Part shown: positions 23,725 through 54,494 of the stretch, in pieces
Numbering within the stretch: the stretch's first letter is position 1
Layout of the letters: every line of letters begins with the position of its first letter
Source: Candidatus Heimdallarchaeum aukensis
GTDB taxonomy: Archaea; Asgardarchaeota; Heimdallarchaeia; Heimdallarchaeales; Heimdallarchaeaceae
Direction of reading: 5' to 3'
Length of the DNA: 64,000 nt
Assembly (NCBI GenBank): GCA_021513695.1
Contig: CP084166.1
Location: forward strand, 1,248,001-1,312,000
Program-made: the position numbers and the translations under genes
The notes under the pieces: model-generated
What the model was told of the DNA's origin: nothing
The model's database searches: none
The model's input: the letters and a program-made list of their open reading frames with translations, nothing else

Positions 23725-25497
23725 TTATTCTTCTTTTTTCTCCTCTTGAAACAGTGGTGGTGAAAGAATAGCAGTCGATTCTATACTTAATATTCCTTTA
23801 TCCATTGCTTTTTTGACATATCCAAAATAGTCCAGTTCATAGATATATTTCATCAATATTTCTTTACGAATATTTAGTATTTTAGACAATTCTTCGACTG
23901 TTAGAGCCCTTGAGAAGTCGTTTAAGATATAAAGTATCCTGTATTTTGGATCTGTATTGAGGAATCCTTCAAGATTCTTCAAGGTTATGCTTAGAGTATC
24001 TATTTTCTTTCTTAATTTTTGAATATCCAGCTCATATTGATATTTTTCTTCACTACTTATTGTTCCTTGTTTCTCTATTTTATCTAGTGTTACTTTAGTA
24101 CTTAGCAACTCTTTTTCAGTTTCTTCAAGTTTTGAAGTTAACTCTTTAATTTTTGCTTGTTGAGCTTCTAATTCCTTCTGTATTCTTTCTTTTTCTTCAG
24201 AGAGACTATTAGCTCGTTCTTGAAGTTCTCTTGATTCCGCATCTTTTTCTGCAATCTGAAGCATAAATTCGTCAATTTGTGTTTGTACTTCATGAAGTTC
24301 TCTTTCTTTTCCGCTTATTTCTTGTTGAAGTTCAATCATTGTTTCTGCTAAGCGTTCAATATCTGAATCTTTCTCCTTTAATTGAATTTGAAGTTCTGTT
24401 ACTTGATTTTCGAGACTCTCAATCTTTGATTGTTGTTCAACAATTGTTCTATCTTTTTCTTCAATTTGTTGCTTTAACTCCTTCTCGAGTTCTCCTAATT
24501 CAGATATCTTTGAAGTTTCACTTTCTTGTTCTTTCATTTTTTCTTGTATTAATTTTAATTCATTCTTTAAGTGTGTATTTTCCTCTTTTAACTTGTTTAT
24601 TTCCTCTTTTGCATGGTCTAAATCTATTTTTAGAGCCTCGATTTGATTAGCTTTCTGAGATATGTCTATTTTCTGATTTCTAATAGTATCCTCATTTTCA
24701 GCTATTTGATTTCGAAGATTAAAAATAGTCAATCTAGCTTTTTCTAGTTGTTTTTGAAGTTCTTCAAAAAACTGATCTTCTTTTGATACACTCTCTGAAC
24801 GAATAACTCTAAGTTTACTTTCTAATTCCTCCATTTGCTTTGCATAAGAATCTCGTTCAATTTTTATTCTATTAAGTTCAGATTGTAGATTAGTTTTTTC
24901 AAGGGTTAACTTCTGGATTTCTCTATCTTTGTCTCTGATTACCTCATCTCTTTCTTTTATTAAACTTTCATCGATTTTTGGAATTGCTGCTGTTTCTGCC
25001 AATTCAGTTATTTTTCCTTCTATGTTTTGAATATATGCTTGTGCTTCTGCAAGTTCTTTCTGTAAAAGAGCATTTTCTTTATTTAACTGCTTTACTTTAT
25101 TGTTTAATTCATCTCTCTCTTTTTCCAAAGAAGGAACTCTTTCTGACTCTTTCTTGTATCTTGCAAGTTGATCCAACATTTCTTCTTTTATAAAACCACC
25201 ATTTACAAATCCTTGTTCGATTGCAGTCCTAATCTTTGTTGTTCCCTCTGTTACAATCATTAAATGCACGTCATTTAAAACTTGAGAATAGCTTGACTTG
25301 AAACTTTTTATTATAGCATCAACTTCACTTACTGTATATTGAGATTTTCCAGGAGCTAAAGATTGGCTCTTGATTTCTTCAGCTTTAGCTTTAACTTGCT
25401 CTTGAGCACTTACTCTTAAAACTCTCATCTCGTTTAAAAACTTTTGAAGTTGATCCCTTACAATTTTAAAAGGACTATCGGCCACTGCTGATGCCAT
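23725..25497 (-). CDS. Long coiled-coil protein with C-terminal winged-helix domain
   Basis: About 370 aa of heptad-rich E/K/L/Q sequence; C-terminal ILYILNDFSRALTVEELSKILNIRKEILMKYIYELDYFGYVKK resembles a wHTH. Confidence 0.5.
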   Translation of the reverse strand: MASAVADSPFKIVRDQLQKFLNEMRVLRVSAQEQVKAKAEEIKSQSLAPGKSQYTVSEVDAIIKSFKSSYSQVLNDVHLMIVTEGTTKIRTAIEQGFVNGGFIKEEMLDQLARYKKESERVPSLEKERDELNNKVKQLNKENALLQKELAEAQAYIQNIEGKITELAETAAIPKIDESLIKERDEVIRDKDREIQKLTLEKTNLQSELNRIKIERDSYAKQMEELESKLRVIRSESVSKEDQFFEELQKQLEKARLTIFNLRNQIAENEDTIRNQKIDISQKANQIEALKIDLDHAKEEINKLKEENTHLKNELKLIQEKMKEQESETSKISELGELEKELKQQIEEKDRTIVEQQSKIESLENQVTELQIQLKEKDSDIERLAETMIELQQEISGKERELHEVQTQIDEFMLQIAEKDAESRELQERANSLSEEKERIQKELEAQQAKIKELTSKLEETEKELLSTKVTLDKIEKQGTISSEEKYQYELDIQKLRKKIDTLSITLKNLEGFLNTDPKYRILYILNDFSRALTVEELSKILNIRKEILMKYIYELDYFGYVKKAMDKGILSIESTAILSPPLFQEEKKEE

Positions 25498-25565
25498 ATT
25501 TATTTCCCTTAACTTTTTTTATAGAATAAGATATATTCTACATATAAATAAGTTTCTTCTAAGAA

Positions 25566-25675
25566 TAGTACTTCCGAATTATCTCAAAAAGTATGAATTG
25601 AGAACACGCCAATGATAGTATGAACTCCTATAATTTTAACCTATAGAAATCAGTCAACTTATTGCGGAAGTACTA
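25566..25675. mobile_element. MITE-like element, copy 1 (110 bp, perfect 11-bp TIRs TAGTACTTCCG/CGGAAGTACTA, flanked by TAAGAA direct repeats)
   Basis: Matches the copy at 41225-41334 (109/110 identical; the single difference is at element position 76, 25641 c vs 41300 t); terminal inverted repeats and 6-bp flanking duplications read directly. Confidence 0.75.
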
Positions 25676-26361
25676 TAAGAAATAGAAAAAGAGAATTTGT
25701 AAATCTTATCCTCAAACTCGTCGATTTCTCTTAAAAAACCAGGCAATTTAAACAGAGGAACAATAGGTACACCATTAAAAATCTTAACAGAAACATTTTT
25801 CCAAGAAACAACGAGTGCAATTAATTTTACCTTATTTCTAATGGGTAATCCTAGTTTAGTCATCAAATCAGAATATATTTCAGGAAATACTTCAATTAGA
25901 GAATCTAATCTTTCTTTCTGCAGTAAAGCAGCTTTAGAATAGTAACTTGGTGGGCTCTTTTTGTGGTATTTACAATCAATTAAAAAAAGGAAAGGAAATT
26001 TAAAAGCTATTATATCTATTTCATTGGTACTTTTAGACTCTGTCTTTATTCTGTAACTATGTAGAGTAGAGTACCCACTTTGATCAAATGCACTAGAAAC
26101 TATCAATTCAAAATCTTTCCAATTTATATGCTTAAGTATCAAATCAGGAACCGAAGAACAAACCAGTAAATTAAAAAGAAGAGAACCGCGCTCTTTTTCA
26201 CTAAAATTAGTATTAGAGTAGAATCGCTCTAATGAGATATTACTTCTTGATAATATAATGTTAAACTTATTTTTGTCAAGTTCATAAATTAACTTATCAT
26301 CATTTGTTAATTCATTTTTTATCCGGTGTAAGATAAATTTTGATACTTTATCAATTTCCAA
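25654..26361 (-). CDS. Hypothetical protein, possible PD-(D/E)xK nuclease fold
   Basis: EIDIIAF ... FLIDCKYHKK resembles a D ... (D/E)xK motif; the last 7 codons and the stop codon lie inside the MITE copy. Confidence 0.35.
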   Translation of the reverse strand: MEIDKVSKFILHRIKNELTNDDKLIYELDKNKFNIILSRSNISLERFYSNTNFSEKERGSLLFNLLVCSSVPDLILKHINWKDFELIVSSAFDQSGYSTLHSYRIKTESKSTNEIDIIAFKFPFLFLIDCKYHKKSPPSYYSKAALLQKERLDSLIEVFPEIYSDLMTKLGLPIRNKVKLIALVVSWKNVSVKIFNGVPIVPLFKLPGFLREIDEFEDKIYKFSFSISYSTSAIS

Positions 26362-26378
26362 AAATTACACCATTTAGA

Positions 26379-27146
26379 TTAAGCTGAACCTTTTGCAACT
26401 TTTATTCTATGAATAATTATCTCTCTTGTTAGTTGTTCTATCGGTTGTGCTACTTTTTGAACATTAGGTGGTCTTTCTCCTTTTTTCAATCTTCCATATT
26501 CATCAAGTTTTTCTTTTACGTTTGGACTTCGAAGAAGTGACATTAGCTCATTTCTAGCATTTAAACAAGAGATTTCCATTACTCGCATATATGCTTCTCC
26601 TTTATTTTGAGCCAAACCTTTTTCTACCACTAAATCGAGAAAATCATCTGTAGGTCTTCTTTTTTCTGCAGGAAGATCTATTTTGTTTAGTACAATCAAG
26701 AAAGGTAAAGAATTTCCGAGTTCATCCCCTTTAAGTTCAATTAGCTCATCAAGGCTTTCAACATTATCTTGCCACATTTCTTTAGATGGATCAAACATAA
26801 AAATTAGTCCATCTGCTCCTTCAAGGACTACCTTTCTTTGTATATGATGTCTTTTCTGTCCTGCAACTGTCCAAACTTGATATCTTAATTTAGGGACGCT
26901 TACTCCTTGACCTTTAGGCAATTCAAAAGTACTCTGGTCATAAAATATTGTTCTTCCAGAAGGGTCATCAATTTTCTTTAGTGATGAATAGATTGTTTCT
27001 GGATCTTCTACTTTTCTTAACACATTATATACTGTTAACATACTAGTTTTTCCTGCTAAAGAAGGTCCAAAAATAACGATTTTAAGGTAAGGAACACCCG
27101 AAGCATCCACTTTGAAGATATCGCTAATTGATAATTTACTTGACAT
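26379..27146 (-). CDS. MglA-like Ras-superfamily small GTPase
   Basis: KIVIFGPSLAGKTSML, GRTIFYD (switch I Thr), RYQVWTVAGQKRH (switch II), NKIDLP; close to bacterial MglA (KIVYYGPGLCGKTT ... LYTVPGQ ... NKRDL). Confidence 0.75.
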   Translation of the reverse strand: MSSKLSISDIFKVDASGVPYLKIVIFGPSLAGKTSMLTVYNVLRKVEDPETIYSSLKKIDDPSGRTIFYDQSTFELPKGQGVSVPKLRYQVWTVAGQKRHHIQRKVVLEGADGLIFMFDPSKEMWQDNVESLDELIELKGDELGNSLPFLIVLNKIDLPAEKRRPTDDFLDLVVEKGLAQNKGEAYMRVMEISCLNARNELMSLLRSPNVKEKLDEYGRLKKGERPPNVQKVAQPIEQLTREIIIHRIKVAKGSA

Positions 27147-32367: not shown

Positions 32368-32617
32368 CTAACCTTTAAACTTTTTCGAATTATTCAAATT
32401 ATTCGAAATTTCGACAAAAAAACTAAATATTACGACAAAAAAGGGAACAATAAAAAAAACTATTTTGTTCAAACAGAAAGTATATAGTTATTTTCAAGTT
32501 TATTATTATTTGAAGAAATAATCTGAGAAAATTTATAAGTGCATCAATAAAGTAAAAATCAGAGAATGAAAAAATTTATAAGTGGGTGAATAAGTCCTGA
32601 GCTTTCGAGACCGAGAA

Positions 32618-33160
32618 ATGGATGAATGGCAGGTAAGAGCTAGAATTGATCAAGCACTTAACAATTCTACAAAAGTATATGCCATGGAAAATGGGCGGTT
32701 AGTAAGATTACATGATGTTATAAAAGTAAGAGAGCTCAACGCATTTCTTGGCTTAATTATTGCTTATTCTGCAGGAAGTTTTATGACAATTGATCGCTTT
32801 TATTTAGATAGTTTTCACCCAGTGAGACAAAAAAGAATAATAAATAGATTAAACAGCCACAGTGGTCAAATAAATACTGCATTATTATTGGAATTACTGC
32901 GGTTACGGGATAAAACAAAACTTAGTAAATATGATATTATCAGAAAAGTTCAACACAAATATTTCATTAATCAACCCATAGGTACAAGAGACATTACAGA
33001 ATCTCTCAACAGAATGCTAAGAAAAACAATGGTAGATTACTTCTGGTTTGAAGGAAAATACTTTAGAAGATCAAATTTTGACTTGCGTTTAATCGAACTA
33101 CCAAATAATGCAAACTATGATTTTATTAAAATAAATATCGACAATATAATACAATTCTGA
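32618..33160 (+). CDS. Hypothetical protein
   Basis: 180-aa ORF, no motif. Confidence 0.35.
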   Translation: MDEWQVRARIDQALNNSTKVYAMENGRLVRLHDVIKVRELNAFLGLIIAYSAGSFMTIDRFYLDSFHPVRQKRIINRLNSHSGQINTALLLELLRLRDKTKLSKYDIIRKVQHKYFINQPIGTRDITESLNRMLRKTMVDYFWFEGKYFRRSNFDLRLIELPNNANYDFIKINIDNIIQF

Positions 33161-33213: not shown

Positions 33214-33675
33214 TTAATCACTAGTTTCTTGTTTTATAGAAGGAGCAATTATGTTTACAGATTGCCAAATATCCTCTTTGTCCAAAAGTAAAACAGGTAG
33301 TCCTCTTATCAAGTCTGGTTCTTTTTTTAGTTCATTCTGTAAAAATGGTGGATAAAATCCTACAAATTTAAAATCATGTTCTTCCAATTCACCTAATAAT
33401 ATTCCTAGTAACATATTATTTGTATCTAAACCTAATATTAAGAAAAAACTATGTTTTGAGAAATCTTCTCCTTCAGGGCTAGATAATTTCACTAATCCCC
33501 CTGAAAGGTGATAATTTTCTTTATTTTTCGATTTTTCTATTATGCTTTGAAAATACTCTGTTTTCAAGATTATATTTGTATTTGTAGCATCATAATAATC
33601 TACAAATTCGAGATCAATTATCGCTTCCTTCCCTTCCTTATCCTTACTTGCTACTGAAGCTTTCCATACTTTCAT
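33214..33675 (-). CDS. Hypothetical protein
   Basis: 153-aa ORF, no motif. Confidence 0.35.
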   Translation of the reverse strand: MKVWKASVASKDKEGKEAIIDLEFVDYYDATNTNIILKTEYFQSIIEKSKNKENYHLSGGLVKLSSPEGEDFSKHSFFLILGLDTNNMLLGILLGELEEHDFKFVGFYPPFLQNELKKEPDLIRGLPVLLLDKEDIWQSVNIIAPSIKQETSD

Positions 33676-38963: not shown

Positions 38964-41198
38964 ATGTTAAGAGGTCGAAAATTGAATAAAAAAACAGTAT
39001 ACATTATAATTTGGAATATACTATCTATTTACATTTTGGTTTCTAGTTTATCATACCATAATGTAATTGCTGAAGATATAACAATAAATGAAAATAGTGG
39101 TGTTTCACCAAAAGATTTGTTTTTGAAAGACCCTACTAATCCTACTCAAGTATTGAAAGCAGAAATAAATCAGAAAAAAGATCAACTTGTTAGCTTTTCT
39201 CCAAGAGTATCGAATGACAAAGAATTTTCTGATGCATTAGATGATGAGAGGAGTTTCTGGACAATTCAGAGTTTTAATAGCTATCCTTATACATATGTTC
39301 AAATTACGGCAACATTATTGGCTATTGGAGACCACACTTATGTCTATGTTGCAAATAGTGTAATTAATAATGTAGGAAAATCTACTGCACAATCAAAAGC
39401 TGAAACTTACAGAGATGAATTTGATGATGTTATTTATCCATCAGATACGTTATACTTTGGCTCTCCTGATGGATATCTAGGAGATATTGATGGTGACCCA
39501 AAAGTAACCATGTTATTACTATCTCTTGATGGGGGTGTTGCTGGTTATTTTGATCCTATTAACGAGTACGTTGACTCGAATTCGAATCAAAGAGAAATGA
39601 TTTATGTCAATTATGATATGTCAGATATTCAATATAGCTTTGCTGTTATTGCCCATGAATTTCAGCATTTAATACATTTTAATCATGATCAAGATGAACT
39701 ATGGTTTATTGATGAAGGGTGTTCTGAATTTGCAACTTATGCCGCTGGATATTGGGCTGGAAATGACAATCTGACTTATTTTGCTGAAGATAATTTTGCA
39801 AATAATCCCATAGATTCTTTGCTTTATTGGAATTACGATAGTGAAGGAGGATACGATGTTAGAATCGATTATGGTGGAGCATATTTGTTTATATTTTATC
39901 TGGCAGAGAAATATGGCTTTCAAATAATTGAAACTTTAGTTGCTGAAACAGCAAACGGAGCTCAAGGAGTTGAAAATGCTCTCATTGATGAAGAGATTCC
40001 TCTCACATTCAACGATTTATATCTAAATTGGATCACTGCATTGACTATCGATGCACCGAATATTGAAGGCGGATTATATGGGTTCGTGAATTTAGACATT
40101 CAAATAAAAGTTAAGACTGAAATTTCAAATGTTCCTACAGAAAGTAATAATGAATTGCATAGATATTATGGTATCCATGTAACTAAAATTACATCCGGAA
40201 GCGATAATATATTCTTTGAAATTTCAGGTTCTGACCAATATGCAATAGGCTTTTCAATTGCAGTTTTGGATTCTGAGGGCTGGCATATTAATCAGTCAAT
40301 AAGTGACATTTCAACTGAATCTAAATTGGAGATAATACAAGGAAAAGACATTTTGCGCATTTATGTTATTACAAGTTTATTAGATCCTGACACACCTTTT
40401 GTTGACAGTAATGATCAATTTGGATTAGGTCCTTACGAATATCTGGACTTGAACATATATGTAGGCAATCCATTATCTATCCAAAATGTACATTCAACTT
40501 ATGAAGAATCAACATGGACATACATTATTTCTGGAGTACGTATTTATGATGTAAACAATACAGAACTCGATAACACTTCTCAAATTGATGTTTTCGTAGA
40601 ATTTAAGGGAAGCGAAGGATTTCAAATGATAAAATCGCTAAATTATTCAGATACAGATTATTGGAATGGTCAATTTTCATTACAAAGTTTTTCAGAAGAT
40701 ACTTATTCAGTAAAACTTTTTGCTAAAAATAGTTCAGCTTTTGGAAGAATCAATCTAGCCGACATTATTGTTGAACACATCATTACTGTAGAAAAACCAT
40801 CTATTGAAATTTCAGGAGATTACTTAGTTATAACTGTTGGAGCTTCTTACACTCAACTTAATGGTTGGGAAAATTTCACTAAATATGCCGAGGTAAAAGC
40901 AGTTATCTATGACATTTCTTCAAGTACTCCTGCAGATGTAATTGATTTATCTTATGACTCTGGATTAGATAAATGGACTAGTGGAAGCTACTATTATGCA
41001 AATCTTACTTATGGTGATTATTACGTGTCTGTAACTTTTAAATATGGTTACCGAACTGTCACATCAAATAATTCAGATATTTTTTCAATCGAGACAGAAG
41101 ACACTACACCTCCAAGCTTTACTCCTTTCCCATTAATATCGACAACTTTAGCAATTGCCACCCTTGTTGCTGTTTTAACCCTGAAAAAGCGAAAATAA
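38964..41198 (+). CDS. Secreted zinc metallopeptidase-like protein (HExxH) with C-terminal TM anchor
   Basis: N-terminal signal/anchor helix, HEFQHLIHF ... DEG (zincin-like motif), C-terminus PPSFTPFPLISTTLAIATLVAVLTLKKRK (TM plus basic tail). Confidence 0.55.
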   Translation: MLRGRKLNKKTVYIIIWNILSIYILVSSLSYHNVIAEDITINENSGVSPKDLFLKDPTNPTQVLKAEINQKKDQLVSFSPRVSNDKEFSDALDDERSFWTIQSFNSYPYTYVQITATLLAIGDHTYVYVANSVINNVGKSTAQSKAETYRDEFDDVIYPSDTLYFGSPDGYLGDIDGDPKVTMLLLSLDGGVAGYFDPINEYVDSNSNQREMIYVNYDMSDIQYSFAVIAHEFQHLIHFNHDQDELWFIDEGCSEFATYAAGYWAGNDNLTYFAEDNFANNPIDSLLYWNYDSEGGYDVRIDYGGAYLFIFYLAEKYGFQIIETLVAETANGAQGVENALIDEEIPLTFNDLYLNWITALTIDAPNIEGGLYGFVNLDIQIKVKTEISNVPTESNNELHRYYGIHVTKITSGSDNIFFEISGSDQYAIGFSIAVLDSEGWHINQSISDISTESKLEIIQGKDILRIYVITSLLDPDTPFVDSNDQFGLGPYEYLDLNIYVGNPLSIQNVHSTYEESTWTYIISGVRIYDVNNTELDNTSQIDVFVEFKGSEGFQMIKSLNYSDTDYWNGQFSLQSFSEDTYSVKLFAKNSSAFGRINLADIIVEHIITVEKPSIEISGDYLVITVGASYTQLNGWENFTKYAEVKAVIYDISSSTPADVIDLSYDSGLDKWTSGSYYYANLTYGDYYVSVTFKYGYRTVTSNNSDIFSIETEDTTPPSFTPFPLISTTLAIATLVAVLTLKKRK

Positions 41199-41224
41199 CT
41201 CTTTTTTCTTTTTTTTAAAAAAAT

Positions 41225-41334
41225 TAGTACTTCCGAATTATCTCAAAAAGTATGAATTGAGAACACGCCAATGATAGTATGAACTCCTATAATTTTAACT
41301 TATAGAAATCAGTCAACTTATTGCGGAAGTACTA
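41225..41334. mobile_element. MITE-like element, copy 2 (110 bp, same 11-bp TIRs, flanked by AAAAAT direct repeats)
   Basis: 109/110 identical to 25566-25675 (single difference at element position 76: 41300 t vs 25641 c); sits 44 bp upstream of the MglA-like gene start. Confidence 0.75.
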
Positions 41335-41378
41335 AAAAATCTAATAATGTTTAAATATATCGAAACCAATTTTTTATT

Positions 41379-42137
41379 ATGAGTCAATCAGAGCTCCAGT
41401 TATCAGATATTTTTAGCGTAGATAAAGATGGAAAGCCCACAATCAAAATTGTTCTTTTTGGTCCCACCTTAGCTGGAAAAACCAGTATGCTTACCGTTTT
41501 TAATGCTTTAAGAAGAATGGAAGATCCAGATCTTATTGTAAGTTCTCTTACCAAAATCCAAGAATATGGTCGAACAGTTTTCTTTGATCACTCTGTTTTT
41601 CAAACACCACCTTTCAAAGGTAAGAAATTTGATCGTCTTCGTTATCATCTATGGACAGTTCCTGGGGAAGAGAGACATAAGGCCCAAAGAGATATTGTTA
41701 TGAGAGGTGTAGATGCTGTTTTACTATTTTTAAATTTTGAAAAAACTGCTTGGGATTCAAATGTTAAAACAGTGAAAGAAGCAAAAGCAAAAATAGGAGA
41801 AAAATTCGGGAAAAAGATTCCAGTTGTTGCGTATATTAATAAATCAGACCTTCCTCCTGAAGAGCGTACAGATAAGCGTGCGTTTATTACATTTTTACAA
41901 GATATTGAAGCTATTCCAAAAGAGAATGTTGCAAACTATATTATGACTGGTAGTTGTCTTAATGCTCGTAATGACTTATTAACCATCTTAAAATCAGAAA
42001 ATCGTGATGAATACCTTGAAAATGAAAGATTGAAAACTAGTAAGCGTCCTGATTCAGTTTGGTTAGTGGTACGACCTATTCAAAAGCTTACACAATTAGT
42101 CGTACAGCAAAGAATGGAAGTTCTACAAGGCATATAA
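41379..42137 (+). CDS. MglA-like Ras-superfamily small GTPase (paralog of 26379-27146)
   Basis: KIVLFGPTLAGKTSML, GRTVFFDH, RYHLWTVPGEERH, YINKSDLPPE; matches MglA motif by motif. Confidence 0.75.
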   Translation: MSQSELQLSDIFSVDKDGKPTIKIVLFGPTLAGKTSMLTVFNALRRMEDPDLIVSSLTKIQEYGRTVFFDHSVFQTPPFKGKKFDRLRYHLWTVPGEERHKAQRDIVMRGVDAVLLFLNFEKTAWDSNVKTVKEAKAKIGEKFGKKIPVVAYINKSDLPPEERTDKRAFITFLQDIEAIPKENVANYIMTGSCLNARNDLLTILKSENRDEYLENERLKTSKRPDSVWLVVRPIQKLTQLVVQQRMEVLQGI

Positions 42138-42254
42138 CCTTTTTTTATCTTTTTTTCACGATGTTTATATAGTATTTTCTAGATTATTGTTTAAAGTAAA
42201 TCAAGTGTCTAATTCGATACTTATAATGTAGTAAATATAAAAGGAGTAGATAAA

Positions 42255-43301
42255 ATGCCAATAGAACCAATGACTAAGGCAGTTGGAGTAGATCTCGGTA
42301 CATCAACAATAAAACTAGTGAGTGGGAATCATTCTTATCGGATTCCCTCAGTAATTGGATCACCAAATCCTGGATGGTCAGGAATGGTGCAAGACAAAAG
42401 TTGGTTAAACAACTTAATAATTGAGGATGCAAATGGAAATGACGTTTATATCGGAGAACTCGCTAGATTACAAAGTGAAATACGTAAGTCTTTAGCTAGC
42501 GAGGGTAAAATGAAGTCTATTGAAAATAGTATATTAGCCTTAAAAGCAATTTTAAGTTTAATTATGAAATCCAATTACGAGCAATTTGTTGTTGCAACTG
42601 GAGTTCCTATTGCTACTGGAGTTGAAGAAAGTAAAGAACTAATTAGAGGACTTAAGGGAACCCACGAAATTAAGGTAAAAAATGATGCTACCGGAGAAAC
42701 AAAGCAAATGAAAATACTCGTGGAACAAGCTTTAGTTATGCCTGAGCCTTATGGAACCTATTACAATATATTAAAAACATCTGGAGTTACTACAGCTGTC
42801 GATTCAGTCATTGTAGACATAGGACATGGTACTACGGACATTTTATGTATGTATAATGGGCGTATAATGAGAGCCGCTTCAGGCTCATTAGAGGAAGCAA
42901 CAGATAGCTTAACAAGTGCCCTTTCAAGAGCAATTCAAGAAAAAAGTGGAAAAATCATTCGACCTTTTGATCTTATGAAAACTATAGAACAAGGCAAGAG
43001 GACAATTCTTGCGGGAGGAAAAGTATTAGACATCGGAAGTGCAGTAGATCAATCTATTGAAACTATCTCAGAAGTAATTATTGACGAGACAAATCGATTA
43101 CTAAATAACCTTCCACCTGATGCATGGATAGAAAAAGTTATGGTTACTGGTGGAGGAGCCTACATTTTTGGTAAATACTTAAAACAAGCTTTCTTTGAAG
43201 CAGACATTGTAAAATCGCCAGATGAAGTAATTGTTCCTAAAGATGCAGTAATGTCTAATGCTATTGGTTTTGAAATGATTGCAAAAACAAAAATGAAGTA
43301 A
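42255..43301 (+). CDS. Actin-fold ATPase (MreB/ParM-like actin homolog)
   Basis: Phosphate-1 VGVDLGTSTIKLV, phosphate-2 VDIGHGTTDI, adenosine motif VTGGGAYIFG; AAGGAG Shine-Dalgarno-like motif upstream. Confidence 0.75.
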   Translation: MPIEPMTKAVGVDLGTSTIKLVSGNHSYRIPSVIGSPNPGWSGMVQDKSWLNNLIIEDANGNDVYIGELARLQSEIRKSLASEGKMKSIENSILALKAILSLIMKSNYEQFVVATGVPIATGVEESKELIRGLKGTHEIKVKNDATGETKQMKILVEQALVMPEPYGTYYNILKTSGVTTAVDSVIVDIGHGTTDILCMYNGRIMRAASGSLEEATDSLTSALSRAIQEKSGKIIRPFDLMKTIEQGKRTILAGGKVLDIGSAVDQSIETISEVIIDETNRLLNNLPPDAWIEKVMVTGGGAYIFGKYLKQAFFEADIVKSPDEVIVPKDAVMSNAIGFEMIAKTKMK

Positions 43302-44869: not shown

Positions 44870-47800
44870 TTAAAACTGTCTTTTTCTTAAAATATAGACT
44901 AAAGACATTAAGGTTACAAGCCCAACAAATATTGATGTATAAGGTGTTTTTGTTGGCTCAGTCTCTGTTGGTTCAGTAGGAGCAGTCTTATACAGTATAT
45001 AGTCTGCATCTAGAACATTTCCAAAATCATCTACTGCATATACATGAATAATATTCTTCTCTTGTGTTAAATGATATGGATATATTCTAAATGAAGCAGA
45101 TTTTGCACCAACAGAAAGTTGAACCTCTTCACCATTTAATGTTACTGAAATGTTATTTGCTGAACTCAATTCATCTTTAACAGTAAAGTCGATATAAGCA
45201 CCAGTCATAGCAGAACCGTTTGTCCAACCTCCACTTCCTATCAGAATAGGAGGTGTGCTATCTAGAATAAATTGACCTATGTATTTATCATCAGTAGTTA
45301 ATATTGTAAAAGTATACTTTCCATCTTCTTCAAGTGTCATTGAATATGAATAAGTTCCAGTTCCAGTGCTAGTAAGAGTAACATCTGTTTTTGTTTCTGT
45401 ACCGTTTACATCAACATATGTCACAGAAGCACTTAATGATGTAGAAGCGGGTATGGCTGTAATATCAAAATCAACTTTGTTGTCTGCTCTTGTAGCATAA
45501 ACAACTACTTTATTGTCTGCAAGTAACCACTTAATAAGATTGTCTGCAAAAACAGCATTTGTAGTTCCGTCATTATAATTTTCGACAAAACCTTCTGTAT
45601 CTATAAAGAAGTTAGTTGTACAAACTACTACTCTTCCTCCGTTCTCATTCTCAAAAGCTGCTGCTGTTGCTTCTCCTTCAAATTCTAATAATTCAACAGC
45701 TTTTCCTGTTGTTGTTAAGGAGGTTCCATAATGATCAACTTTGGCTACATTTTCAGTTATTCTGTGAAGATTTTTTACATTTGCAGTAAGAGGTTCTTCA
45801 AAACTATAAAATCCTTCATCTACTTGAATGTCATAAGGCTCAATGAGTTTGTTTACCATTGTAACATTGTTTCCAATAACCAACCCATAATCTGGATCCT
45901 TTGATGCTCCAAGAAGATCAATAAACAATGATCCTCCATTCGCCACATAGTCTTGTATAGCTGTTATTTCATCTGCTGTTAATGCGCCATAAGTTTGAGC
46001 TTTAGTGGATGGAAAATTTGGATAGATGGTATTAAATGGATCAGCGAACCAAATTGCATCGTAATCAGCTAGCAATTCTGAAGTTATTTCTCCTTTAGTT
46101 ATTTCGTTTACTGCTATTCCCTTACTGTTTAGATCTTCAATAAAGTAAATATATTGGCCTAATAAATGGTCCATTCCCCAGTTTGTATGCATCTTTGCTA
46201 GTAAAATTCTCTTTTCTCCAGGTACAACTTTAACTTTTATTATTGTCTCTGCTGTAACTCCTTTAGCTGTTTCAAAAGTTATTTTTCCTTCATAATCTCC
46301 TACAGCAGCATCTAGAGGGACATCAAAGATAAGTTCATAGTTTTTGTCCCAAGGATCTGTTGCTGGGGTGGTATTTAATGTGGCAATTTGAGTAATTGTT
46401 CCTGATAAGACTGGTGTTTTATCTTCCCAAGGAGTAGAAGATACAGATTTAACATAAATAGAAGCATAGAAACCTTGGTTTATCTCTTGATAGAATGGCA
46501 CATCAAGTTCTGGAATAGCCCATAATAGAACTGGAAAACCGCTATCGTTTTTAGGAGCGGCTTTAATTAAGTCTAATGCTTTTCCTAAATCTGGAACTCC
46601 TGCACCAAATTTCAAATAATCTAATCCTTGATCATCAGCTGAAAGCATCATTGCAGTCTTAATCATACCTGCATCATAAGGAATGCTCAATCCTTTTAAG
46701 ACATCAATAAGTACAGCTGCTGCTCCAGTAATTGCAGGAGTAGACATTGAAGTTCCTTGCATAGAAACATAATCAGTAGAACTTGCGATACCACAGCTCA
46801 TAATACCCATACCAGGAGCTGCTAGATCAGGTTTTACATATCCATCAGCAGTAGGACCGACAGAACTGAAATAAGCTTGTCCTTGACCGGTTTGTTTAGT
46901 TGCAGCTACAGAAATACTTTGAGCTTCTGCCCCAGGAGACTCAACTGTATAATAGTTTGTTCCACTATTTCCAGCTGCGACTGCAACAAGAATATTATTT
47001 AGGTAAAGTTCTCTAATCATTGCTTCTTCAGCATCTTGTCCTTCAGTATCTGTTCCACCCCAACTGAGGTTTATTACATTCACAATAGTTCCATTCTCTT
47101 TTAATTCTAGAGCATACTCAAAAGCAGCAATAAAAGCCTCAGGAGGAGCAGGACTTCCTAAGCGTCCTACAAGGATTTTTGCTTCAGGAGCCATTCCTAT
47201 ATATTCAGCATTTCCTACTCCAGCTCCAGCCATAATTCCAGCTGTGTGAGTACCATGTCCATTTTCATCTTCAATACTAGGATCATTAATATCATAACCG
47301 TTTTCCTTGGTAATGAAAGACTTACTTTCTTCCATTATTCTTCCTTGGAAATCAACATGTTGAGTATTAATTCCTGAGTCAATATCATATGCGATAATAG
47401 AGCTTCCCTTATATCCTAAATCCCATAAGAAACTTACATTTAGAATATCAGCTGTCTGCTTAGTCAATTTAATTTTTTCAGCATTAGATACAAGATAGAC
47501 TGGATCTTCTGGTTGCTTAATTTGAGTATATTTAGTATCAGTTAAATCGAAAACATTCTTTACTCCGTCAATTGATTTCAAGTTATCTTTTTCACTTAAC
47601 ATGTCTTCAACAATTACCATTTTTAAATAAGGATAGACTCGTTTTACATCATGTTGAGAGACAAAATTCTCTAATGCTTCAGGATTAGAGAAGTGAATAA
47701 GATATTTTCGCATCGAATCGACAAATGGTTGTTGAATTTCAACTTCTCTGGGTTCAATTGAAACTTCAGAACTTACTTGTTCTGTATTCGCGTGAATTAT

Positions 47801-47911
47801 TGAACCAGATTGTAATAAAATAAGCAATATTGTTATTGTACTGAACACATACATAATCTTTCTGCGGTTCATAATACAAGCTTTTTTGAGATATTCATAA
47901 AGTTTACTCAA
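44870..47911 (-). CDS. Secreted subtilisin-like serine protease (S8) with C-terminal domains and TM anchor (1013 aa)
   Basis: Signal peptide; Asp YDIDSGI, His HGTHTAGIMAG, Ser GTSMSTPAITG; C-terminal TEPTETEPTKTPYTSIFVGLVTLMSLVYILRKRQF. Confidence 0.85.
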   Translation of the reverse strand: MSKLYEYLKKACIMNRRKIMYVFSTITILLILLQSGSIIHANTEQVSSEVSIEPREVEIQQPFVDSMRKYLIHFSNPEALENFVSQHDVKRVYPYLKMVIVEDMLSEKDNLKSIDGVKNVFDLTDTKYTQIKQPEDPVYLVSNAEKIKLTKQTADILNVSFLWDLGYKGSSIIAYDIDSGINTQHVDFQGRIMEESKSFITKENGYDINDPSIEDENGHGTHTAGIMAGAGVGNAEYIGMAPEAKILVGRLGSPAPPEAFIAAFEYALELKENGTIVNVINLSWGGTDTEGQDAEEAMIRELYLNNILVAVAAGNSGTNYYTVESPGAEAQSISVAATKQTGQGQAYFSSVGPTADGYVKPDLAAPGMGIMSCGIASSTDYVSMQGTSMSTPAITGAAAVLIDVLKGLSIPYDAGMIKTAMMLSADDQGLDYLKFGAGVPDLGKALDLIKAAPKNDSGFPVLLWAIPELDVPFYQEINQGFYASIYVKSVSSTPWEDKTPVLSGTITQIATLNTTPATDPWDKNYELIFDVPLDAAVGDYEGKITFETAKGVTAETIIKVKVVPGEKRILLAKMHTNWGMDHLLGQYIYFIEDLNSKGIAVNEITKGEITSELLADYDAIWFADPFNTIYPNFPSTKAQTYGALTADEITAIQDYVANGGSLFIDLLGASKDPDYGLVIGNNVTMVNKLIEPYDIQVDEGFYSFEEPLTANVKNLHRITENVAKVDHYGTSLTTTGKAVELLEFEGEATAAAFENENGGRVVVCTTNFFIDTEGFVENYNDGTTNAVFADNLIKWLLADNKVVVYATRADNKVDFDITAIPASTSLSASVTYVDVNGTETKTDVTLTSTGTGTYSYSMTLEEDGKYTFTILTTDDKYIGQFILDSTPPILIGSGGWTNGSAMTGAYIDFTVKDELSSANNISVTLNGEEVQLSVGAKSASFRIYPYHLTQEKNIIHVYAVDDFGNVLDADYILYKTAPTEPTETEPTKTPYTSIFVGLVTLMSLVYILRKRQF

Positions 47912-50285
47912 AAAAGTGCTTTTAATTATCTAAATAAATTATTAAGTAAATTATTATGCAAAAAGTCGTACCAAAATTTTAAAAAATACCACTCAAACCT
48001 AAATATTAGCAGTTAGTAACTATTGTATCTATTATTTGAGAGATTCAACTATTAAATTAACAATAAGAATTCAACAGAAGTGGAAAAATGAGTGAAAAAG
48101 TAGGTATCATTGCATATGGAATATATATTCCGCGAAATAGAATTACTGTCGATGAGATCGCCAGTATATGGGGAGAAGATGCTAACGAAATAAAATCTCA
48201 ACTGCAAATTTTTGAAAAATCTGTTCCTTTTCCAGATGAAGATGTAGCAACCATGGCTGTCGAAGCAGCGCGTAATGCAATGAAACAATGGGGAGGAGAA
48301 GCAGAAAAAATAGGTGCAATATATGTTGGAAGTGAATCTCATCCATACGCCGTTAAACCAACTGCAACGATTGTTGCAGCTGCAATAGGCGCAGAAGGAG
48401 AAACGACGGCAGCAGATTTGGAATTTGCATGTAAAGCAGGAACTGCAGGCATGCAAATGTGTTTTGGATTAATTCAGTCAAACATGATCAAGGTTGGTCT
48501 AGCTATAGGTTCTGATAGTAGTCAAGCTAAACCAAAAGACCCATTAGAGTACACTGCGGGTGCAGGAAGTGCCGCATTTTTAATTGGTAAGCAGGATATT
48601 ATCGCAGAGCTTGAGGGTACATATTCTTACACTTCTGATACTCCAGATTTCTGGAGAAGAGAAGGAGCAACTTTTCCCTCTCATGGTCAAAGGTTTACTG
48701 GTATGCCTGCTTATTTTGATCATATTATAAAAGCAACAAAAGGATTATTAGAAAAAATCGATAGAAAGCCTGAAGACTATGATTACGTAACATTTCACCA
48801 ACCTAACACAAAATTTCCTTTAAGAGTAGCTAAAATGTTAGGTTTTTCTAAAGAGCAAATCGAAAATAGTTTGGCGTGTAAGTACGTAGGAAACACATAT
48901 TCTGCTTCATCTATGATTGGATTTGCAAAAATTTTGGATGAAGCACAACCAGGCGATAAAGTTCTTGTAACTTCATATGGAAGTGGAGCAGGAAGTGATG
49001 CTTTTTCTTTTAAAATTACAGAAAACATCGAAAAAATAAGGAGTAGATCTAAAACTGTTCAATATTATATTGAAAATAAAAGAAATATCAGCTATGGTCT
49101 CTATTCCCGCTATAAAGGAATTTTAAAGGTGTAAGTATGAGTAATGAAGTATATATAATTGGTACTGGACAAACAAAATTTGGTGAATTTTTTAATTTAA
49201 ACATTGGTGATCTTGCTTCTGAAGCAGTTAACAAAGCTATTGAAAACGCGGGAATAGGAAAAGATGAGATAAGAACGCTATTTATTGGGTCAACAGTTTC
49301 TAACTCTCTTTCTCAATCATCAATAGGCGGAATTTGTACTAGAAGTTGTAGTTTATCTTCTAACGCTTACAGGATTGAATCTGGAAATGCTAGTGGTGCA
49401 GCTGCATTCCACCACGCTTTTTTAAGCATAAAAAGTGGGTTATATGACGTTGTTGCTGTATTAGGAATTGATAAATTATCAGATTATATCCAAAATGGAA
49501 CAATTGAAAAAATTTTAGCTTCATCCATTGATTACCAATGGGAATACGAAATGGGAGCTACCCTCACAGGATTATACTCTTTTCTGACTCAAGCTCATAT
49601 GGAAGAATATGGAACAACATTAGAACAGCTAGCTTATATTCCAACGAAAAACCATCAAAATGGAGTTCTAAACCCAAAAGCTCAATATAGGTATGCTATC
49701 CCACTAGAAAAATTTCTTAATGCAAAAAGAATTGCTGACCCTATTGGAAGGTTTGATGTGGCTACACCTTGTGACGGTGCAGCAGTAGTAATATTAGCTT
49801 CTGAAAGATATATTGAAAATAAAAAACCACATTCTTACAAGGTAAAAATTCTCTCCTCATCAGCTGGTTCAGACACTTTAGCTTTGCAACACAGAGAAAA
49901 ACTAACAGAGTTAAAAGCAACTAGACTGGCTGTTAACGATGCTTACAATAAAGCCAAAATTTCAGCAAATGATATTAATGTTGCAGAAGTACATGATTCA
50001 CACCCAATTGGAGAGATATTAGCAATAGAAGATCTTGGTTTGGTACCTAAAGGTGAAGGAGGAAAAGCAACTGTAGAAGGGTTGACTGCGCTAAACGGAA
50101 AGATAACTGTTAACCCAAGTGGAGGATTAAAAGCTAGGGGTGATCCTTTCGGAGCAACAGGAATTGCACAGTTAATAGAAATCGTTGAACAAATAAGAGG
50201 AAATGCTGGAAAAAGACAAGTCGAGGATGTAAAATATGGGTTAACACAAAATGTCATGGGAACAGGGGTTATGTCCTATGTTTCT
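46101..50285. repeat. Unit A of a perfect 4185-bp tandem direct duplication
   Basis: All ORFs in 46101-50285 recur with identical translations at +4185 (48088/52273, 49137/53322, protease N-terminus 47911/52096). The junction near 50285-50288 shares a tatt microhomology. Confidence 0.85.
48088..49134 (+). CDS. Archaeal hydroxymethylglutaryl-CoA synthase (copy A)
   Basis: MSEKVGIIAYGIYIPRNRI N-terminus, catalytic Cys context EFACKAG, 348 aa; precedes a thiolase gene (HMGCS/thiolase/DUF35 operon). Confidence 0.85.
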   Translation: MSEKVGIIAYGIYIPRNRITVDEIASIWGEDANEIKSQLQIFEKSVPFPDEDVATMAVEAARNAMKQWGGEAEKIGAIYVGSESHPYAVKPTATIVAAAIGAEGETTAADLEFACKAGTAGMQMCFGLIQSNMIKVGLAIGSDSSQAKPKDPLEYTAGAGSAAFLIGKQDIIAELEGTYSYTSDTPDFWRREGATFPSHGQRFTGMPAYFDHIIKATKGLLEKIDRKPEDYDYVTFHQPNTKFPLRVAKMLGFSKEQIENSLACKYVGNTYSASSMIGFAKILDEAQPGDKVLVTSYGSGAGSDAFSFKITENIEKIRSRSKTVQYYIENKRNISYGLYSRYKGILKV

Positions 50286-50333
50286 ATTTCGTTTACTGCT
50301 ATTCCCTTACTGTTTAGATCTTCAATAAAGTAA
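49137..50333 (+). CDS. Thiolase (acetyl-CoA acetyltransferase), copy A, with a junction-derived C-terminal tail
   Basis: Identical to copy B for 382 aa, then reads SFTAIPLLFRSSIK across the duplication junction instead of LGRGDN. Confidence 0.7.
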   Translation: MSNEVYIIGTGQTKFGEFFNLNIGDLASEAVNKAIENAGIGKDEIRTLFIGSTVSNSLSQSSIGGICTRSCSLSSNAYRIESGNASGAAAFHHAFLSIKSGLYDVVAVLGIDKLSDYIQNGTIEKILASSIDYQWEYEMGATLTGLYSFLTQAHMEEYGTTLEQLAYIPTKNHQNGVLNPKAQYRYAIPLEKFLNAKRIADPIGRFDVATPCDGAAVVILASERYIENKKPHSYKVKILSSSAGSDTLALQHREKLTELKATRLAVNDAYNKAKISANDINVAEVHDSHPIGEILAIEDLGLVPKGEGGKATVEGLTALNGKITVNPSGGLKARGDPFGATGIAQLIEIVEQIRGNAGKRQVEDVKYGLTQNVMGTGVMSYVSISFTAIPLLFRSSIK

Positions 50334-54470: not shown

Positions 54471-54494
54471 ATTCTAGGGAGAGGTGATAATTAA
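53322..54494 (+). CDS. Thiolase (acetyl-CoA acetyltransferase), intact copy B
   Basis: 390 aa, thiolase fold motifs (GSGAGS ... CDG), native C-terminus; stop overlaps the DUF35 start. Confidence 0.85.
   Translation: MSNEVYIIGTGQTKFGEFFNLNIGDLASEAVNKAIENAGIGKDEIRTLFIGSTVSNSLSQSSIGGICTRSCSLSSNAYRIESGNASGAAAFHHAFLSIKSGLYDVVAVLGIDKLSDYIQNGTIEKILASSIDYQWEYEMGATLTGLYSFLTQAHMEEYGTTLEQLAYIPTKNHQNGVLNPKAQYRYAIPLEKFLNAKRIADPIGRFDVATPCDGAAVVILASERYIENKKPHSYKVKILSSSAGSDTLALQHREKLTELKATRLAVNDAYNKAKISANDINVAEVHDSHPIGEILAIEDLGLVPKGEGGKATVEGLTALNGKITVNPSGGLKARGDPFGATGIAQLIEIVEQIRGNAGKRQVEDVKYGLTQNVMGTGVMSYVSILGRGDN

What the first reader, a model, noticed from the sequence alone, without database searches (positions are those of the whole stretch)
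41379..43301. MglA-like GTPase immediately upstream of an actin-fold (MreB/ParM-like) ATPase
The 252-aa GTPase matches bacterial MglA motif by motif (P-loop, switch I Thr, WTVPGE switch II, NKSDLP). Its 3' neighbour has the phosphate-1, phosphate-2 and adenosine motifs of actin-family filament formers. In Myxococcus, MglA physically couples to MreB filaments to set polarity. A genomically linked MglA-actin pair in an archaeon suggests an ancestral GTPase-controlled cytoskeletal module. No separate MglB gene is present; the roadblock domains are instead fused to other GTPases in this window.
Basis: partly seen in the sequence, partly recalled or inferred. Interest (0 to 1): 0.75.

Follow-up and report, generated by a model that had tools for sequence, protein, structure and literature searches.

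The report
MglA-type GTPase linked to ParM-like actin
A Heimdall-group archaeon encodes an MglA-type small GTPase next to a ParM/Ta0583-type actin-like protein, and relatives of the same two families are also linked, in a different gene order, in a sister lineage, which points to (but does not prove) a GTPase-regulated actin-like filament system.

Summary
Both genes are real and correctly read. 41379-42137 encodes an MglA group-1-type GTPase (GRT Arg finger, TVPG motif), but the catalytic Gln is Glu in all 33 distinct orthologs with a readable motif. 42255-43301 encodes an actin-fold ATPase of the ParM/Ta0583 type, not MreB, crenactin or lokiactin.

The direct abutment is a derived state. In 21 of 24 informative Heimdallarchaeaceae loci, a winged-helix gene (c2) lies between the two on the opposite strand. 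Here c2 sits 8 kb upstream (32618-33160). The spacer carries T-runs and TATA-like boxes, so co-transcription is unlikely.

The linkage still looks meaningful. In a sister ALP clade of other Heimdall genomes, a GTPase of the same subfamily sits in an operon-like ALP / ParR-like adaptor / TPR-zinc-ribbon / GTPase / SNF2-helicase cluster. ALP and GTPase are the only gene families the two contexts share.

Best reading: a chromosomal ParM-derived filament module with a dedicated small-GTPase switch, possibly DNA-linked. This is a new variant of known kinds. Functional coupling is inferred from gene context only.

The parts
41379..42137 (+). GT_A: MglA group-1-type small GTPase, 252 aa. It has a G domain (about residues 20-200) plus a conserved C-terminal extension of about 50 aa (R223-P224 invariant). 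The catalytic Gln is replaced by Glu (E97).
   Evidence: The group-1 definition is from PMC4316618.
42255..43301 (+). ALP_A: ParM/Ta0583-type actin-like ATPase, 348 aa.
   Evidence: Pfam ALP_N and MreB-like_C. NCBIfam ParM, MamK and MreB all far below cut-off. PDB ParM sequence hits. AF2 model pLDDT 86. Foldseek top hits are ParMs, Ta0583, CorM and Alp7A. PHROG 691 partition protein, E 1e-44.
42138..42254 (+). 117-bp spacer. Two T7 runs (42140-42146, 42150-42156) follow the GTPase stop directly. TATA-like boxes lie at 42164-42171 (TTTATATA) and 42220-42227 (CTTATAAT), and GGAG at 42243-42246. Read as a likely terminator plus the ALP's own promoter.
   Evidence: Read from the sequence. A TATA-like element and Shine-Dalgarno are conserved upstream of the ALP in relatives. 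This is inference; no transcript data.
41199..41378 (+). Upstream region of the GTPase gene. TTTAAATA at 41350-41357, 21 nt before the ATG (suggests a leaderless mRNA). A 17-nt inverted repeat lies at 41224-41240 / 41319-41335.
   Evidence: Inference only.
32618..33160 (+). c2: 180-aa protein restricted to Heimdallarchaeaceae. Unassigned N-terminal alpha/beta domain, C-terminal winged helix, and a conserved terminal helix (...K-I-x-[LVI]-D-N-[VI]-I-Q-F). In most relatives it lies between GT_A and the ALP on the opposite strand; here it has been relocated.
33214..33675 (-). c48: 153-aa protein of unknown fold that accompanies c2 and/or GT_A in the window, L001, L006, L022 and L080 (which include the earliest-branching clade-A loci in the NJ tree).
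26379..27146 (-). GT_par: paralog of the same GTPase subfamily (42% identity to GT_A) that keeps the catalytic Gln (TVAGQ). It is the first gene of a conserved three-gene operon.
23725..26361 (-). Partners in the GT_par operon: a 235-aa protein with a weak NERD/Mrr-type nuclease-fold signal (25654-26361) and a 590-aa coiled-coil protein (23725-25497).

Best explanation
The pair belongs to a chromosomal, ParM-derived actin-like filament module of Heimdallarchaeia that carries its own MglA-type small GTPase.

Proposed mechanism (inferred):
- The ALP polymerises with ATP into a cytomotive filament.
- An adaptor tethers the filament to its cargo, probably DNA. In the sister clade this would be the ParR-like c12, whose conserved C-terminal peptide ends DRPSLDDAIGAIVVVE. 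In Heimdallarchaeaceae it may be the winged-helix protein c2, with c48.
- The GTP-bound GTPase binds the filament or its adaptor and sets where or when the filament is engaged or released, in the way MglA-GTP binds MreB polymers in Myxococcus.
- In this lineage the ALP-linked copy retains the intrinsic Arg finger but has Glu instead of the catalytic Gln, and no MglB is nearby. I therefore expect altered, GAP-independent hydrolysis: either a slow timer or a long-lived GTP state.

Shown: the family assignments, the motif states, and the gene linkage in two different architectures.

Inferred: any physical interaction, the identity of the cargo, and the kinetic effect of the Gln-to-Glu change.

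The two genes in this window are probably transcribed separately.
For: 1. Family assignments.
2. Linkage in clade A. 23 of 24 Heimdallarchaeaceae loci with enough flank have the GTPase within 1.5 kb upstream of the ALP on the same strand. All metagenome GT_A loci with downstream flank beyond the GTPase gene agree.
3. A second architecture. In 14 genome loci and 12 metagenome loci from other Heimdall lineages, the order is ALP>c12>c13>GTPase>SNF2-type helicase with short same-strand gaps. That GTPase shares the full architecture of the window protein, including the C-terminal extension (E 1e-30 to 1e-47).
4. ALP and GTPase are the only gene clusters shared between the two contexts. In an NJ tree the two GTPase-linked ALP clades fall in one group.
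5. Reverse test. Starting from the GTPase subfamily, two of its three branches are always ALP-linked. The third lies 12-15 kb from the ALP locus and heads an operon with a coiled-coil protein.
6. Partner genes downstream of ALPs in Heimdall (c12) and in Loki/Hel (c34) share a conserved C-terminal peptide, RP[SK]LDD...[IV]V.E. This is the ParR/CorR logic of binding the filament through a C-terminal helix (bioRxiv 10.1101/2025.06.27.661541).
7. Precedent for a direct MglA-GTP to actin-homolog interaction: PMC4508894.
8. The Glu at the catalytic position is fixed in 33 of 33 distinct ALP-adjacent orthologs. Gln is fixed in the other two branches, 15 of 15 and 18 of 18.
Against: - No experiment or interaction prediction links the two proteins.
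- In this window each gene has its own promoter-like element, and T-runs separate them.
- In most relatives an opposite-strand gene lies between them.
- In one relative (L022) an inversion puts the GTPase 7.7 kb away on the other strand.
- The whole 9-gene neighbourhood is syntenic across clade A, so adjacency within that clade is weak evidence on its own.
- Most Asgard clades of this ALP family (Loki, Hel, Njord and two further Heimdall paralog clades) have no such GTPase within 10 kb.
- The clade-B operon GTPase is closer to the window's other paralog, GT_par, than to the ALP-adjacent gene.
- The RHH fold of c12 and any DNA binding by c2 are unconfirmed.
Confidence: 0.45

Rival explanations
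1. Neighbours by synteny only. The GTPase and the ALP work in unrelated processes and sit together because gene order in this region is conserved among closely related Heimdallarchaeaceae.
For: - The whole block c8-c9-c7-c3-GT-(c2)-ALP-PssA-Psd-S8 protease is syntenic across clade A, and it includes plainly unrelated lipid-synthesis genes.
- Separate promoter and terminator signals.
- An opposite-strand gene lies between the two in 21 loci.
- The L022 inversion separates them.
- Asgard genomes are rich in small GTPases; this window alone has five Ras-superfamily genes.
Against: - The same GTPase subfamily is found in an operon-like cluster with the sister ALP clade, where no other neighbour is shared.
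- For roughly two subfamily copies in a 3.3-Mb genome, a chance placement within 2 kb of a given gene is about 0.2-0.3% (my own rough estimate).
- Every GT_A and GT_B locus recovered with downstream flank beyond the GTPase gene is ALP-linked.
Confidence: 0.28
2. The GTPase acts with the winged-helix protein c2 (and c48) as a signalling or transcription module. It regulates expression of the divergently transcribed ALP gene or of other targets, rather than touching the filament.
For: - In the common arrangement c2 is transcribed divergently from the ALP and convergently with the GTPase.
- c2 and c48 stay next to the GTPase, not next to the ALP, in the L022 inversion.
- Published precedent: group 3 MglA systems are encoded with a protein that has an unassigned N-terminal domain plus a winged HTH (PMC4316618).
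Against: - In this window c2 and c48 have moved 8 kb away from both genes, while the GTPase has stayed beside the ALP.
- In clade B there is no c2 at all. The GTPase sits inside the ALP operon with a ParR-like adaptor.
- Winged-helix domains also mediate protein-protein contacts, as in cullin WHB and ScpB, so DNA binding is not implied.
Confidence: 0.2
3. A plasmid- or virus-type ParMRC partition cassette sitting on an integrated mobile element, with the GTPase as a passenger gene.
For: - The ALP matches PHROG 691 'partition protein' at E 1e-44, and its closest solved structures are plasmid ParMs.
- The sister clade has a ParR-like partner gene.
Against: - Base composition is uniform.
- The flanks are housekeeping genes and are syntenic in more than 20 species-level genomes.
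- There are no tRNA genes in the window, and no integrase-family hit among the window ORFs scanned with Pfam.
- No ParR tail motif and no parC-like iterons were found in the window.
- No relative was found in the viral contig collection.
- None of the finding's own proteins (GTPase, ALP, c2, c48) matches a defence-system family.
Confidence: 0.05

Closest known systems
MglA (group 1) / MglB / MreB polarity module of Myxococcus xanthus
   Same: - The GTPase carries the group-1 signature: Arg next to the G2 Thr, and T-V-P-G in G3.
- MglA is by far its best solved relative.
- MglA-GTP binds an actin homolog directly (PMC4508894).
   Different: - The catalytic Gln is Glu.
- There is a conserved C-terminal extension of about 50 aa.
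- No MglB/roadblock gene was found in 64 kb.
- The actin homolog is ParM/Ta0583-type, not MreB.
- The host is archaeal.
- In Myxococcus, mglA and mreB are, to my knowledge, not linked in the genome.
ParMRC type II partition systems (R1, pSK41, pCBH, Bacillus thuringiensis ParM, Alp7A)
   Same: - The ALP fold and sequence are closest to these.
- In the sister clade, the gene just downstream has the ParR layout: an RHH-looking core, a linker, and a conserved C-terminal peptide.
   Different: - The locus is chromosomal and syntenic, not on a plasmid.
- There is no ParR and no parC in this window.
- A small GTPase is associated, which to my knowledge has not been described for ParMRC.
- NCBIfam ParM scores 68 bits against a cut-off of 417.
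CorMR of Anabaena (a chromosomal ParMR repurposed as a cortical cytoskeleton)
   Same: - It is a chromosomal ParM-type filament. CorM is among the top sequence and fold matches.
- Its partner binds through a C-terminal helix.
   Different: - CorR is anchored to the membrane by an N-terminal amphipathic helix and competes with MinC.
- No GTPase is involved.
- It is bacterial.
Ta0583 of Thermoplasma acidophilum (archaeal actin homolog)
   Same: It gives the best TM-score to the ALP model (0.75/0.81, rmsd 3.5 A). The Pfam C-terminal domain PF21522 ('Archaeal actin homologue MreB-like, C-terminal') matches.
   Different: Only about 19% identity. The function of Ta0583 is not established, and no GTPase partner has been described for it.
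Crenactin / arcadin-2 and lokiactin
   Same: Archaeal actin-family filaments. Arcadin-2 regulates crenactin (title of ref. 23 cited in PMC9834061); that it does so through a C-terminal peptide is from my own knowledge. The logic is the same as proposed here for c12 and c34.
   Different: No actin or crenactin structure appears in the top 50 fold matches. Pfam Actin scores 17.8 bits against a cut-off of 27. This is a different branch of the actin superfamily.

Membership tests
MglA family, group 1 (Wuichet & Sogaard-Andersen 2014) | Ras-superfamily G domain with G1, G2, G4 and G5 motifs | tested here: met
   GPTLAGKT (28-35), T66, NKSD (154-157) and SCL (192-194).
MglA family, group 1 (Wuichet & Sogaard-Andersen 2014) | Intrinsic arginine finger adjacent to the G2 threonine | tested here: met
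   G-R65-T66-VFFD, present in all 34 GT_A sequences. Definition.
MglA family, group 1 (Wuichet & Sogaard-Andersen 2014) | G3 motif TVPGQ (Thr in place of Asp, plus the catalytic Gln) | tested here: not met
   T93-V-P-G96 is present, but the Gln is Glu (E97) in 33 of 33 distinct orthologs. The paralog and the clade-B GTPases keep Gln but read TVAGQ and TTAGQ.
MglA family, group 1 (Wuichet & Sogaard-Andersen 2014) | Coupled MglB (Roadblock/LC7) GAP gene | tested here: not met
MglA family, group 1 (Wuichet & Sogaard-Andersen 2014) | Closest sequence relationship is to MglA rather than to other Ras-superfamily groups | tested here: met
   phmmer: MglA 1e-14 against 1e-3. Profile: 4e-24 against 6e-10. 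No ML tree with reference MglA1-5 sets was made.
ParM / type II partition ALP | Actin fold with the five nucleotide-binding motifs, closest to ParM-type structures | tested here: met
ParM / type II partition ALP | Adjacent ParR adaptor gene (RHH plus a C-terminal ParM-binding peptide) | tested here: not met
   There is none next to the ALP in this window, and no tail motif anywhere in the window. The sister clade has a ParR-like c12, but its RHH fold is unconfirmed. c2 is a candidate analog and is untested.
ParM / type II partition ALP | parC centromere (an array of iterons) beside the operon | tested here: not met
   Only two-copy short repeats were found.
ParM / type II partition ALP | Carried on a plasmid or other mobile element | tested here: not met
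   Conserved chromosomal synteny, uniform GC, and no viral-contig relatives.
ParM / type II partition ALP | NCBIfam ParM equivalog score | tested here: not met
   68 bits against a cut-off of 417.
MreB | Family-level sequence match (NCBIfam or Pfam MreB) | tested here: not met
   PF06723: 21.9 bits against 27. NCBIfam MreB: 21.6 against 293. MreB structures rank below the ParM/Ta0583 group.
Crenactin / lokiactin / eukaryotic actin | Family-level match to Actin (PF00022) and fold closest to actin or crenactin | tested here: not met
   17.8 bits against 27. None appears in the top 50 Foldseek matches.
Arco oscillator (ArcoA GTPase with ArcoB and ArcoC) | ArcoA identified by PF01926; partners by PF09846 and PF09845 | tested here: not met
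   The finding's GTPase has no PF01926 hit at E<=0.01. No PF09846 or PF09845 hit was found among the scanned window ORFs. Definition from bioRxiv 10.64898/2026.07.23.738820.

The most novel reading that the evidence does not exclude
Heimdallarchaeia, the archaeal group closest to eukaryotes, run a ParM-derived actin-like filament under direct control of a dedicated Ras-superfamily GTPase, with the GTP-bound form binding the filament or its adaptor.

The ALP-adjacent copy would have evolved a Glu-for-Gln active site that works without any MglB-type GAP.

This would be a prokaryotic, independently evolved case of small-GTPase-controlled actin-family dynamics. It might drive chromosome or DNA-element segregation.
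Probability: 0.3. Interest if true: 0.8.

Novelty: new variant of a known kind. Interest (0 to 1): 0.6.

Why it matters
Small GTPases that steer actin-family filaments are a hallmark of eukaryotic cells. In prokaryotes the only well-studied case is MglA-MreB in Myxococcus, and to my knowledge that pair is not linked in the genome.

A conserved gene-level association between an MglA-type GTPase subfamily and a ParM-type filament in Heimdallarchaeia would give a compact, testable system of two to five small soluble proteins. It could show how a GTPase switch can be wired to an actin-like polymer.

It would also add a regulatory layer that has not been described for ParMR-type systems.

Finally, it flags a natural Gln-to-Glu active-site variant of an MglA-type GTPase that lacks a nearby GAP.

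The full-text library searched here holds no description of this linkage.

Tried and rejected
- **RHH fold of c12.** Tested with Pfam, NCBIfam and a PDB profile search, with no support. It is kept only as an inference from the sequence pattern.
- **Roadblock fusions on the Arf-like GTPases.** Nothing was found with Pfam at E<=1 (two of the three extensions), with PDB phmmer, or with phmmer using Heimdall roadblock probes.
- **parC-like iterons.** None around the ALP, the GTPase or c2, nor in L004 and L037.
- **Defence-system or phage origin.** PADLOC gives no hit for the GTPase, ALP, c2 or c48; its only hits are coiled-coil-type matches for the 590-aa protein and one marginal hit for c12 (RT_UG22, E 0.0046). 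PHROGs hits the ALP as a 'partition protein', plus one weak hit for c12 to a family of unknown function (phrog_17095, E 9e-4). The viral-contig scan found no relative.
- **Arco oscillator membership.** Rejected on Pfam criteria.
- **A weak NCBIfam hit of the Loki/Hel partner c34 to arcadin-2** (E 0.07) is not significant and is not used.
- **No structure prediction of the GTPase itself.** Both jobs went to the ALP and c2.
Full report
**What is at the coordinates**

Two ORFs lie on the + strand at 41379-42137 (252 aa) and 42255-43301 (348 aa), separated by 117 bp.

The window is an AT-rich (about 31% GC, uniform) archaeal chromosome segment. It carries ribosomal protein S8e, Trm1, the HMG-CoA synthase/thiolase/DUF35 trio, PssA, Psd and Arf-family GTPases. 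The complete genome of Candidatus Heimdallarchaeum endolithica PR6 has the same locus, with 98-99% protein identity (L001). The host is therefore a Heimdallarchaeaceae member.

**The GTPase**

- Pfam gives only sub-threshold Roc, Ras and Gtr1 hits.
- Against solved structures, the four best matches are all MglA (E 1e-14), and the next family is at 1e-3.
- A profile of the subfamily widens this gap to 4e-24 against 6e-10.
- Group 1 MglA is defined by an arginine next to the G2 threonine and a TVPGQ G3 motif (PMC4316618). The window protein has G-R65-T66 and T93-V-P-G96, but E97 in place of the catalytic Gln.
- The Glu is fixed in 33 of 33 distinct orthologs.
- The protein also has a conserved C-terminal extension of about 50 residues, with an invariant R223-P224.
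- MglA-type GTPases (the MglA1 and MglA2-5 groups) are already known in Asgard archaea (bioRxiv 10.1101/2024.02.28.582541; PMC10933270).

**The actin-fold protein**

- Pfam ALP_N and 'archaeal actin homologue MreB-like C-terminal' both pass their cut-offs. The MreB, FtsA and Actin models do not.
- NCBIfam ParM, PRTRC-D, MamK and MreB are all far below their cut-offs.
- All five actin-superfamily nucleotide motifs are invariant in 16 homologs.
- An AF2 model (pLDDT 86) is closest to pCBH ParM, Bacillus thuringiensis ParM, Ta0583 (best TM-score, 0.75/0.81), Dh-cParM1, CorM, pSK41 ParM and Alp7A. MreB ranks lower, and no actin or crenactin is in the top 50.
- PHROG 691 'partition protein' matches full-length at E 1e-44.
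- So this is a ParM/Ta0583-type ALP. The family is widespread in Asgard archaea (Heimdall, Thor, Hel, Loki and Njord) at about 45-60% identity, with several paralog clades.

**Is the adjacency conserved?**

I fetched 80 loci encoding this ALP family from species-representative genomes. I located the GTPase in them by tblastn and clustered all neighbouring ORFs.

In clade A (Heimdallarchaeaceae, ALP 78-98% identical), 24 loci have enough upstream sequence:
- 23 have the GTPase within 1.5 kb upstream of the ALP on the same strand.
- In 21 of those, a 180-187-aa gene (c2) lies between the two on the opposite strand. One of the 21 (L006) also has a 153-aa gene (c48) there.
- One locus (L080) has only c48 between them.
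- Only L001, like the window, shows the direct 117-bp abutment.
- In L022 an inversion places the GTPase 7.7 kb away on the other strand, still next to c2 and c48.

In the window, c2 and c48 are at 32618-33160 (+) and 33214-33675 (-), which is 8 kb upstream. Locus tags and contig lengths suggest that at least two further close relatives share it. A metagenome contig from the same species, L088, shows it directly.

The spacer has two T7 runs directly after the GTPase stop and TATA-like boxes before the ALP start. Relatives conserve a TATA-like GTTTAAATAA about 40 nt upstream of the ALP, plus a GGTGA Shine-Dalgarno. Separate transcription is the likelier reading. This is inference only.

**Why the linkage may still be functional**

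Clade-A adjacency alone is weak evidence, because the whole nine-gene neighbourhood is syntenic there. The stronger evidence comes from a second ALP clade.

- Clade B (other Heimdall MAGs, ALP about 51% identical) sits in a tight same-strand cluster:
  - the ALP;
  - c12, about 230 aa, with a basic disordered N-terminus, a core that reads like a ribbon-helix-helix, a linker, and an invariant tail DRPSLDDAIGAIVVVE;
  - c13, 372 aa, TPR-like with a C-terminal zinc ribbon;
  - a 223-246-aa GTPase;
  - a 1,400-aa SNF2/DEAD helicase.
- The clade-B GTPase aligns with the window protein over residues 21-246, including the C-terminal extension. It has GRT or GKT in G2 and TTAGQ in G3.
- ALP and GTPase are the only gene clusters the two contexts share.
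- In an NJ tree, clades A and B fall in one group. That tree is a distance tree with a midpoint root, so it is only indicative.

**Reverse test**

Starting from a GTPase alignment, 37 metagenome loci fell into exactly three contexts:
- **GT_A:** next to c2 and the ALP.
- **GT_B:** inside the ALP operon. All six full-length loci and six partial ones agree.
- **GT_par:** heading an operon with a weak NERD/Mrr-like 235-aa protein and a 590-aa coiled-coil protein.

The window carries GT_par too, at 26379-27146 (-) with its two partners. On one metagenome contig, GT_par and GT_A lie 12.6 kb apart.

One caveat: GT_B is more similar to GT_par (34%, E 1e-47) than to GT_A (28%, E 1e-33). GT_A therefore looks like a faster-evolving Heimdallarchaeaceae duplicate that acquired the Gln-to-Glu change.

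**Adaptors**

- c12 (Heimdall clade B) and c34, the TPR-containing gene downstream of the ALP in Loki/Hel genomes, share a C-terminal peptide, RP[SK]LDD...[IV]V.E. ParR and CorR bind their filaments through a C-terminal helix, so I read these as filament-binding tails. This is inference.
- No such tail exists anywhere in the window.
- No parC-like iterons were found.

**MglB**

No roadblock gene or domain was detectable in the window. Other Heimdall loci do carry Robl_LC7 genes, flanking an Arf-like GTPase.

The three Arf-family GTPases do have C-terminal extensions of unknown fold, which I could not model.

**Mechanism**

MglA-GTP, but not MglA-GDP, binds MreB polymers (Kd about 1 uM), and Q82A/L variants are GTP-locked (PMC4508894). 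By analogy, I propose that the GTP-bound GTPase engages the ALP filament or its adaptor.

The retained Arg finger, the Glu substitution and the missing GAP suggest altered, GAP-independent hydrolysis. From memory, and not checked here, Ras Q61E has been reported to hydrolyse GTP faster than wild type, so Glu need not mean a dead enzyme.

The RHH-like and winged-helix partners, the SNF2 helicase and the partition-protein ancestry point to DNA as the likely cargo. The CorMR precedent shows that chromosomal ParM systems can instead become shape-determining cytoskeletons.

**Comparison and novelty**

The components are known kinds: MglA-type GTPases in Asgard archaea, and ParM-family ALPs annotated in Asgard MAGs. 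The conserved association of the two, the operon form with a ParR-like adaptor, and the fixed Glu variant were not found in the literature searched.

I class this as a new variant of a known kind. Functional coupling remains unproven. I put it at about 0.45, against 0.28 for synteny only and 0.2 for a GTPase-c2 regulatory module.

Noticed in passing
window 46.1-54.5 kb (47901-50288 = 52086-54473): An exact (100% identity) tandem duplication with a 4,185-bp period. It covers the N-terminal 604 codons of the S8 protease (44870-47911), the HMG-CoA synthase-like gene and most of the thiolase gene. The second protease copy (50276-52096) is truncated. The near-identical L001 genome has a single copy. 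This is either a very recent duplication or an assembly artefact.
   Followed up: partly
window 8545-9456, 27621-28640, 28644-29645: Three Arf-family GTPases (Pfam Arf E 3e-32, 2e-36 and 3e-18), each with a C-terminal extension of 125-150 aa and unknown fold. The last two are in tandem. No roadblock or longin signal was found by sequence.
   Followed up: partly
window 23725-27146 (-): A conserved operon: the Gln-retaining paralog GTPase, a 235-aa protein with a weak NERD/Mrr-type nuclease signal, and a 590-aa coiled-coil protein whose similarity to SMC, Rad50 and JetC looks like coiled-coil composition only. It is found in all GT_par loci.
   Followed up: partly
L037 11052-11741; L050 11352-12491; 12 and 7 loci respectively: Genes downstream of ALPs in Heimdall clade B (c12) and in Loki/Hel (c34) end in the same conserved peptide, RP[SK]LDD(A/M)(I/L)..(I/V)(I/V)V.E. 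This is a candidate filament-binding tail shared across Asgard classes.
   Followed up: partly
L040, L048, L050, L055, L056, L062, L064, L066: Loki/Hel loci carry two divergently oriented ALP paralogs, flanked by a TPR-like gene (c37) and by c34. This could be a two-actin module.
   Followed up: no
window 41224-41240 / 41319-41335 and 32524-32550 / 32567-32593: A 17-nt inverted repeat (88% complementary, 78-nt loop) lies in the region upstream of the GTPase gene. A 27-nt direct repeat (85% identical, 43-nt spacing) containing TTTATAA lies just upstream of c2. Both are possible operator or promoter elements.
   Followed up: no
window 38964-41198 (+): A 744-aa predicted secreted or membrane-anchored protein with an HEFQH metalloprotease-like motif and no Pfam family. 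It lies immediately upstream of the GTPase in the clade-A loci that extend that far (cluster c3).
   Followed up: no
L085 2902-4419: A Robl_LC7 / Arf-like GTPase / Robl_LC7 gene triad in another Heimdall contig, 4 kb from a GT_par-like gene. This shows that roadblock partners exist in the lineage but pair with a different GTPase.
   Followed up: no
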